Assembly: GCF_009914755.1 (NCBI RefSeq)
Contig: NC_060939.1
DNA: 64,000 nucleotides
Reading direction: 5' to 3' (one strand)
Origin: the human T2T-CHM13v2.0 reference genome, Homo sapiens
Every line of letters begins with the position of its first letter. Position 1 is the first letter of the stretch. A program made the translations under genes and the position numbers. Of the stretch, positions 22,388 to 23,886 are shown piece by piece. The notes under the pieces are model-generated. The model was not told the origin of the DNA, did not search any database, and saw nothing but the letters and a program-made list of their open reading frames with translations.

Positions 22388-23886
22388 GTGGCATGATCTC
22401 AGCTTACTGCAATCTCTGCCTCCCAGGTTCCAGCGATTCTCTTGCCTCAGCCTCCAGAGTAGCTGGGATTACAGGTGCCCACCACCATGCCCAGCTAACT
22501 TTTAAAATATTTTTAGTAGAGATGGGGTTTCACCGTGTTGGCTGAGCTAGATTCAAACTCCTGACCTCAAGTGATCTGCCCACCTTGGCCTCCCAAAGTG
22601 CTTGGATTACTGGCATGAGCCATCACACCTGGTCCATATTTTGGTTTTAAAAATGTTTTTGCAACTCTTATCTCATTGTCTCCTTTTCCCCCAAACCTTG
22701 GGAGGAAGGTAGTAGAATATGTTAATGATGCATATTATCAAATATACATATAACAGCAGTATTGCTATTTCTGAAGGGCAATATGGCACAGGGGTTAGGT
22801 GTGTGGGCTCATTAATCTGCCGGGGTTGTGGTCTGACTTTCTCAGTTACTAGCTGTGTAATCCCAGACAATCCACTTTACCTCTCTGTGCCTCAGTTTTC
22901 TCACCTGTTAAATGGAGAAAGTTAAAAATAGTATATATCTCATATGGATATTATAAGGATAACATTATAGGTACTTATATGAGAAAATTCACCTAAAACA
23001 GAACAGTGCACATAGTAATTGCTTGATAAATATGATGATGATTATTATTTCTATTTTAGCATGGGGGCACTAATTCTGAGGAATTGAGCACTCAATGAAT
23101 TCAATCACATTTATTGAGTCCCTTCAATGTTCCAGACAGTGTGCAAGAGTTATGGTTGATGGTGCTCAGAGGATAATGATGGAGACAGGGACAAACCAGA
23201 TCATTCTTATTTCTGATGTGGCCAAAGTGCAGGCAAAGACATGTCAGGGAAATCATGGGTACACCGAGGAGGGCAGACAGTGTGGGGAGGGGCGTCCTGG
23301 GGGAGGTGGCTGTTGAAAGCAGGATATTCCAGGAAACCAGTCTGGATGGTGGTAAGAGGTGGGAATGGGCAGAGGGATATGGGCTCGCAGGGGCTTGCAG
23401 GAGCTCACAGGGGCTTGGAAGAATTTGCTGGAGGTGGCAGAAGAGGTGATGAGCACAGTGGAGTCAAGTCTGAGGCAGGGATGAACTGGGACAACAGAGA
23501 GGGGCATTGTCCAGTTCAGAACCTGAGCTCTCTTGTTCTTTTTTTTAAGGAGCACAGGTGATCCTTAAAGATCCAAGAGTGAATTCTAAGCAAGGGAGGG
23601 TTTCAGTTGTCTAAGCAAGTCCTGCAATCAAAGGTTCCAGGTCAGCAAGGCCAAAGGTGACAGCAGGTCCTCATATCCTTTCTGGAGAAGCTCGGAGTAC
23701 TCAATAGCCCACACCCACTCACTTCTCCCTTCTCACGGGGACACTCTAGTCCATGTCCTGTCTGCCTACCTCCCTGCCTCCCCTCGCCAGTGGCCCTGCA
23801 CCCAGGCGTGACTCAGTTGGCCCAGATGAACTCTGCAGGCTCCAGCAATGCCATGGTTACACTGATTTCAAAACAACATCTGGAAT
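22388..23886 (+). repeat. Derived copy of a 1.5 kb local duplication (source 42383-43893), inserted into the L1
   Basis: Colinear match at offset ~20005; duplicated ORF-track peptides (23216 vs 43221, 23241 vs 43246); L1 sequence resumes on both sides. Confidence 0.96.

What the first reader, a model, noticed from the sequence alone, without database searches (positions are those of the whole stretch)
23199..23886. Abrupt identity step inside the duplication suggests interlocus gene conversion
Seen (counted by eye): 23101-23198 has ~11 differences in 98 bp versus its partner. Then 23199-23431 equals 43204-43436 exactly for 233 bp, including three CpGs. All of 23199-23886 has only ~12 substitutions plus one 2-bp indel (~98%). 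The left half has many substitutions and several indels, also outside the Alu. One duplication event should give roughly uniform divergence. Inference: the right half has been homogenised later, possibly more than once. The alternative is constraint on a duplicated regulatory element.
Basis: partly seen in the sequence, partly recalled or inferred. Interest (0 to 1): 0.7.

Follow-up and report, generated by a model that had tools for sequence, protein, structure and literature searches.

The report
Gene-converted 1.5-kb duplicate inside IL16
A 1.5-kb piece of an IL16 intron has a second copy 20 kb away inside an old L1 element, and the two copies differ by about 12% in some patches but 0-3% in others, most likely because of later gene conversion between them, an ordinary process for nearby duplicates.

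Summary
It is not one step, though. Divergence is a mosaic: 12% (22395-22684), 3% (22685-23085), 11.5% (23086-23198), 0% (23199-23431), 2.6% (23432-23886). The best change-point is 22684 (all sites) or 23180 (non-CpG). The unevenness exceeds permutation (P about 0.0002) and two empirical nulls (0 of 136 L1 pairs; 0 of 510 thinned pseudogene draws for change-point and run). Without the Alu, support drops (permutation P 0.007-0.07), and the 233-bp run is not special within the right half (P 0.08-0.32). New here: copy A sits inside an old L1, with 5 bp of target lost, 1-2 bp microhomology and no target-site duplication. It looks like a break-repair templated insertion from copy B. The shared Alu dates it to roughly 20-35 My; about 73% of the pair looks much younger (about 3-9 My). 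Published human conversion rates reproduce this. Best reading: non-allelic gene conversion (0.72). Primate orthologues were unavailable, so it is unproven. A new instance of known processes; low interest.

The parts
21608..22389 (-). Old L1, part left of the insertion (host/acceptor site); its T-rich 3' end lies near 21500
   Evidence: Aligns to window L1 16563-17334; 82-85% identical to the 39 other scored genomic copies; match ends at 22387-22389 in 25 of 25 relatives with both flanks, of 29 examined
22388..23886 (+). Copy A: inserted duplicate (IL16 intron 1 of NM_172217). Left junction GT 22388-22389 is an inferred 2-bp microhomology; right junction T 23886 is a 1-bp microhomology
22390..22684 (+). 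Old plateau 1: truncated antisense Alu (to 22631) plus 53 bp; 35 substitutions in 285 columns from 22395 (12%)
   Evidence: polarised against the majority of 104 other Alus
22685..23085 (+). Young plateau 1 (includes a MIR-like relic near 22830-22960; family name recalled): 12 of 401 (3.0%), two indels
   Evidence: dispersed repeat matches at query 187-321
23086..23198 (+). Divergent island, likely unconverted: 13 of 113 (11.5%), with two TG/CA double CpG decays; resembles an L2 3' end (recalled, no tool match)
   Evidence: scan P 0.0009-0.08 depending on statistic
23199..23431 (+). 233-bp run identical to 43204-43436
23361..23383 (+). Four-run G-quadruplex motif inside the identical run (also 43366-43388)
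   Evidence: regex scan; folding not tested
23432..23886 (+). Young plateau 2: 12 of 455 (2.6%) plus a 2-bp indel; no substitution in the last 118 bp; contains an AP-1-type TGACTCA at 23809
23886..25048 (-). Old L1 resumes 5 bp after the left break point
   Evidence: gap of 5 bp in 13 of 25 relatives; most others end the match a few bases earlier or later
39304..39716 (+). IL16 exon with the start codon of the long transcript (ATG 39405), lying between the two copies
   Evidence: hub annotation; ATG checked
42318..42628 (-). Full-length Alu with poly(A) in the donor copy (AluS-like by recalled diagnostic bases)
   Evidence: hub mask 42318-42628
42383..43893 (+). Copy B: original (donor) sequence, IL16 intron 2 of NM_172217
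   Evidence: carries the whole Alu, of which A has only part

Best explanation
Two direct copies of 1.5 kb lie 20 kb apart in IL16; copy A interrupts an old L1 and was likely pasted there from copy B by double-strand-break repair an estimated 20-35 million years ago, and about three quarters of the pair was likely re-homogenised later by non-allelic gene conversion. Shown: the two copies, the interrupted L1, the 5-bp target loss without duplication, and the patchy divergence. Inferred: donor direction B to A at birth; the dates (clock 1.5e-9 per non-CpG site per year from PMC5402677: old 26 My, CI 18-36; young 5.5 My, CI 3-9); one or several conversion tracts covering about 22685-23085 and 23199-23886 and leaving the Alu end and 23086-23198 unconverted. 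The direction of conversion is unknown.
For: Change-point P 0.0002 in three encodings. 0 of 136 pairs among 17 L1 copies of similar divergence reach any of six statistics. 0 of 510 thinned draws from 51 of 120 EEF1A-pseudogene pairs reach five of six statistics, and 3 of 510 reach the sixth. The three divergent segments share one level (12.5, 11.3, 11.5%; chi-square P 0.95, post-hoc borders). In the Alu, 7 non-CpG changes are shared, 12 are private to A, 5 private to B and 1 differs in both. That puts the duplication at 0.52-0.65 of the Alu's age and rejects a 5-8 My age (P at most 0.004 if the Alu is at least 35 My). Eight TG/CA double decays on the left need change in both copies; CpGs kept in both copies are 0 of 11 left and 5 of 8 right (P 0.005). 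Simulated conversion at c/mu 21-80 gives the joint pattern in 4-12% of runs, against 0.17% for one age. Harpak et al. report c = 2.5e-7, mu = 1.2e-8, a 250-bp mean tract and a 4.5% plateau; this pair differs by 4.8% overall.
Against: No orthologue or haplotype data, so no tree test. Much of the signal rests on the Alu: without it, permutation P is 0.007-0.07; thinned L1 nulls reach the statistics in 4-32 of 640 draws; pseudogene nulls reach them in 9-79 of 830 draws for run and change-point, and 93 and 286 of 830 for dispersion. Neither null contains an Alu next to unique DNA, and null pairs are not independent. An Alu non-CpG rate 2-3 times that of the flanks would remove the Alu excess. Block-wise rate variation with CV 0.5-1.0 matches the pattern as often as conversion does (1.6-19%). 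Harpak et al. find conversion slows with divergence, and Dumont and Eichler call it likely negligible below 88% identity, so late conversion needs the interior to have stayed similar. A 3-state HMM adds almost nothing over 2 states.
Confidence: 0.72

Rival explanations
1. One duplication age with no conversion: local mutation-rate differences (a hypermutable, methylated Alu and a chance cluster at 23086-23198) make the patches.
For: Non-Alu tests are modest. Gamma-block rate variation with CV of 0.5 or more reproduces the pattern in 1.6-19% of runs. The two best change-points disagree.
Against: Observed non-CpG dispersion in null pairs is about 1.0, i.e. little block variation. The Alu excess persists after CpG removal (P 0.003-0.03 at a 1.5-fold rate). 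The within-Alu private/shared ratio does not depend on the Alu's rate and points to an old duplication.
Confidence: 0.14
2. Unequal crossovers rather than simple conversion: a 20-kb duplication by crossover between A and B and a later contraction at another point leave a chimeric copy; or a second templated repair event rewrote part of the insert.
For: It gives the same sequence outcome. Direct repeats 20 kb apart with a 233-bp identical run are a plausible crossover substrate (established knowledge). High identity runs right to the right junction (0 substitutions in 118 bp), whereas edges usually escape conversion.
Against: It needs two rare events and a transient duplication of a coding exon of 413 bp. 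The L1 target lost only 5 bp, so the right junction looks original.
Confidence: 0.08
3. Purifying selection on a duplicated regulatory element keeps the young-looking segments alike.
For: An AP-1-type motif and a G4 motif are kept in both copies. Retained CpGs could reflect low methylation.
Against: Complete constraint on the donor alone would give about half the old plateau (3.9%); observed is 18 of 1089 (P 1e-5, or 0.016 at the lower CI). Both copies would need about an 80% slowdown over 1.1 kb, including repeat relics. The AP-1 motif has 12 + 12 strand matches in the window. No RefSeq functional element is listed here, and there is no Rfam match.
Confidence: 0.05
4. Error-prone synthesis at the time of insertion put clustered mutations into copy A only, and the duplication is young.
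For: In the Alu, A has more private changes than B (12 vs 5 non-CpG; P 0.14).
Against: B has its own private changes (5 non-CpG, 4 CpG, a 5-bp deletion), and TG/CA double decays require both copies to have changed.
Confidence: 0.01

Closest known systems
Non-allelic (interlocus) gene conversion in human duplicates (Harpak et al., bioRxiv 10.1101/135152, passages read; Dumont and Eichler 2013, PMC3790853, passages and supplement search; Vollger et al. 2023, PMC10172114, passages and supplement search)
   Same: Patchy excess identity between paralogues; tract sizes of a few hundred bp (250 bp mean; GENECONV median 198 bp); overall divergence near the 4.5% continuous-conversion plateau.
   Different: A two-copy, 1.5-kb, purely intronic pair, not a gene family. 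It is below the 10-kb and four-sequence cut of Dumont and Eichler. No genealogy or polymorphism evidence here.
Class 2 templated sequence insertions (Onozawa and Aplan 2016, PMC5110952, passages read)
   Same: No target-site duplication, no poly(A) at the junctions, micro-deletion and microhomology; the donor stays in place.
   Different: The donor is local (20 kb, same gene, same strand) rather than distant; 1.5 kb against 73-414 bp in their experimental events; apparently ancient, and polymorphism is not tested.
Segmental duplication / NAHR substrate (over 90% identity, at least 1 kb; size criterion recalled)
   Same: 1,509 aligned bases at 93.8%, direct orientation, flanking a coding exon.
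   Different: Very small; no copy-number variant between the copies was found in the papers searched.

Membership tests
Non-allelic gene conversion tract | Paralogue identity locally higher than uniform divergence allows | tested here: met
   for the whole pair; weaker without the Alu
Non-allelic gene conversion tract | A run of perfect identity longer than expected (GENECONV-type signal) | tested here: inconclusive
   P 0.0006-0.035 against whole or non-Alu pair; P 0.08-0.32 within the right half
Non-allelic gene conversion tract | Local genealogy switch: paralogues cluster within species | not testable with these tools
   no primate genomes held ('no relatives here')
Non-allelic gene conversion tract | Non-reciprocal transfer; paralogue-shared polymorphisms; GC bias | not testable with these tools
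   one haploid assembly only; unpolarised strong-base counts are symmetric (13 vs 10 young, 23 vs 20 old)
Class 2 templated sequence insertion | No target-site duplication, no junctional poly(A) | tested here: met
Class 2 templated sequence insertion | Micro-deletion and microhomology at junctions | tested here: met
   5-bp target loss; 1-bp right microhomology seen; 2-bp left one inferred through the Alu majority; 1-2 bp can arise by chance
Class 2 templated sequence insertion | Donor from a distant genomic region | tested here: not met
   donor is 20 kb away in the same gene; it works like class 2 but is a local templated insertion
Class 2 templated sequence insertion | Polymorphic in humans; RNA template | not testable with these tools
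   single assembly; same-strand orientation fits a DNA or a pre-mRNA template
Constrained duplicated enhancer | Slow evolution of both copies across species, and chromatin or reporter activity | not testable with these tools
   donor-only constraint rejected; no functional element in the hub annotation

The most novel reading that the evidence does not exclude
A break in a transcribed gene was patched with the gene's own downstream intron. The resulting pair has stayed in concerted evolution for 20 My or more around a G-quadruplex and is still converting in humans, keeping alive a crossover substrate whose 20-kb deletion would remove the start-codon exon of the long (likely neuronal) IL-16 form.
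Probability: 0.12. Interest if true: 0.55.

Novelty: new member of a known kind. Interest (0 to 1): 0.27.

Why it matters
If true, it is a compact, datable test case: a repair-born local duplicate with an internal Alu clock, showing that overall identity (95%) understates its age about twofold and that conversion can persist in a 1.5-kb non-coding pair. The copies flank the exon with the start codon of the long IL16 transcript, so a 20-kb deletion or duplication is a concrete thing to look for. The processes themselves are well known and expected at published rates.

Tried and rejected
Single step at 23198: rejected as the description. Extra copies elsewhere: none found. Replacement of one Alu by a third Alu: rejected, because rare shared changes run through the element (22456, 22506-7, 22543-5, 22552, 22603). 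Capture during L1 retrotransposition: disfavoured, since the host L1 is 12.7% (non-CpG) from its nearest scored relatives against 7.8% for the old plateau; only 40 of 10,955 candidates were scored, so it is not excluded. Hairpin or structured RNA in the identical run: none (z +0.92; no Rfam match in 21500-45000). No tandem repeat lies in either copy. The PRDM9 13-mer (pattern recalled, also quoted) occurs only in the Alu part, 22580/42575, not in the young tracts. The G4 motif lies in the identical run; 2.3% of 233-bp windows contain one, but this was noticed post hoc, counts copy B's own motif and ignores G-richness, so it is a lead only. Literature: no paper held IL16 + gene conversion + duplication + primate; the IL16/15q25.1 search gave 2 papers; IL16 was absent from the 2 readable Vollger supplements, with one unreadable and the large event tables possibly not held. 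One 7,142-bp IL16 loss (chr15:79338110-79345251 in that paper's assembly) is the wrong size for a 20-kb event; I could not place it in the window by any search. Earlier scan findings were not available. In the nulls, 69 of 120 and 37 of 120 pseudogene pairs were dropped for length, divergence or too few differences, and 8 of 136 L1 pairs were not used in thinning.

Full report
Observation. A self-comparison of the window finds one large non-repeat duplication: 22395-23886 against 42390-43893, direct, 93.8% over 1,509 columns. Genome searches with either copy found only these two, apart from short dispersed-repeat matches (only best candidates are scored).

The profile is a mosaic, not one step. 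Substitutions per aligned column: Alu part 29 of 232; next 53 bp 6 of 53; 22685-23085 12 of 401; 23086-23198 13 of 113; 23199-23431 0 of 233; 23432-23886 12 of 455. These borders were drawn after seeing the data. The best single change-point is after 22684 (all substitutions, or adjacent ones collapsed) or after 23180 (non-CpG), each at P 0.0002 in 5,000 permutations. A two-state HMM gives the same two alternatives; a third state adds under 1 log-likelihood unit. Without the Alu, the change-point at 23180-23198 has P 0.010, 0.072 and 0.027 and the longest run P 0.007, 0.020 and 0.035. Within the right half the 233-bp run is unremarkable (P 0.08-0.32). The island 23086-23198 stands out at P 0.0009-0.019 with a fixed width chosen post hoc, and 0.005-0.083 with variable width.

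Empirical nulls. Among 17 copies of a young L1 family (136 non-independent pairs, mean 67 differences), none reached any of six statistics of the whole pair. For the non-Alu part, 4-32 of 640 thinned draws did. Among 16 EEF1A processed pseudogenes, 51 of 120 pairs were usable: 0 of 510 draws reached five statistics and 3 reached non-CpG dispersion. For the non-Alu part (83 of 120 pairs), 9, 19, 21 and 79 of 830 draws reached the run and change-point values, and 93 and 286 reached the dispersion values. So unevenness is solid for the whole pair and modest without the Alu. Neither null has an Alu beside unique DNA.

Origin. Copy A interrupts an old minus-strand L1. In 25 of 29 related L1 loci both flanks align; the left match ends at 22387-22389, the right usually resumes at 23886, and the commonest gap is 5 bp (13 of 25). 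So 5 bp of target were lost and none duplicated. The right junction shares one T with the donor. The left shares GT with the Alu majority sequence, where present-day B has a substitution (inferred). B carries the whole Alu with its poly(A); A starts inside it. Hence B is the donor. These features match class 2 templated insertions as described in PMC5110952 (passages), except that the donor is local, so I call it a local templated insertion that works like class 2. A DNA template and an IL16 pre-mRNA template both fit the same-strand orientation. The host L1 is 12.7% (non-CpG) from its nearest scored relatives, older than the duplicate, which favours insertion into a resident L1.

Age. Against the majority of 104 other Alus (panel partly chosen for likeness to B), the non-CpG changes are 7 shared, 12 private to A, 5 private to B and 1 different in both, out of 195 sites. 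The private share puts the duplication at 0.52-0.65 of the Alu's age (CI 0.29-0.89). AluS was most active 35-60 My ago (PMC5402677, passages; the subfamily call for this Alu is from recalled diagnostic bases). A duplication only 5-8 My old is rejected at P of at most 0.004. Pooled non-CpG divergence is 31 of 398 (7.8%) in the old patches and 18 of 1089 (1.65%) in the young ones: 26 My (18-36) and 5.5 My (3-9) at 1.5e-9 per site per year. A slower ape clock would make both older. CpGs agree: 0 of 11 kept in both copies on the left, 5 of 8 on the right (P 0.005), though low methylation could also do that.

Mechanism. Non-allelic gene conversion between the copies, 20 kb apart in cis, is the best account (0.72). 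Harpak et al. (passages) give c = 2.5e-7 per base per generation, mu = 1.2e-8, a mean tract of 250 bp and a 4.5% plateau under continuous conversion; this pair differs at 72 of 1487 columns (4.8%). In my simulation, c/mu of 21-80 reproduced the joint pattern (count, change-point, long run; thresholds set from the data) in 4-12% of runs, and a single age did so in 0.17%. Against it: block rate variation with CV of 0.5 or more did as well (1.6-19%), although the nulls show little such variation; an Alu rate 2-3 times its flanks would erase the Alu excess; the same paper says conversion slows as copies diverge; and identity extends to the very right edge. Constraint on the donor alone cannot reach 1.65%; on both copies it would need exon-like strength. 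Expansion and contraction by unequal crossover would look the same as conversion.

Leads. A four-run G4 motif lies in the identical run. G4 loci normally show raised, not lowered, substitution rates (PMC7897504, passages); a role in starting conversion is my speculation. The copies flank the 413-bp exon with the ATG of NM_172217. A long neuronal IL-16 form exists (PMC12171437, passages); equating it with this transcript is recalled. A crossover would delete or duplicate 20,005 bp including that exon.

Known or not. Searches for this locus found nothing on the duplicate. Dumont and Eichler excluded families this small. The library lacks many subscription papers, and bioRxiv supplements and some large tables could not be seen, so absence from print is not established. 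Verdict: a real feature and a new instance of two known processes, quantitatively ordinary; interest 0.27.

Noticed in passing
window 16449-18789: A younger minus-strand L1 fragment, 95-97% identical to 39 other scored copies; used as the null family.
   Followed up: partly
window 23888-25048: The right part of the host L1 is further from relatives (21%) than the left part (15%); the relatives show the same trend among themselves (20% vs 15%), partly because they were selected on the left part.
   Followed up: partly
window 42239-42263: Another G4 motif about 120 bp upstream of the donor's left boundary; one more lies in the host L1's 3' end at 21509-21529.
   Followed up: no
window 41902-41959: Two-copy 28-bp tandem duplication about 430 bp upstream of copy B.
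   Followed up: no
window 7903-8047 and 8390-8608: AT-rich minisatellite-like arrays (21-bp and 64-bp units; 15-35-bp units).
   Followed up: no
window 22543-22545 / 42538-42540: Three adjacent shared substitutions in the Alu, likely one multinucleotide event before the duplication.
   Followed up: partly
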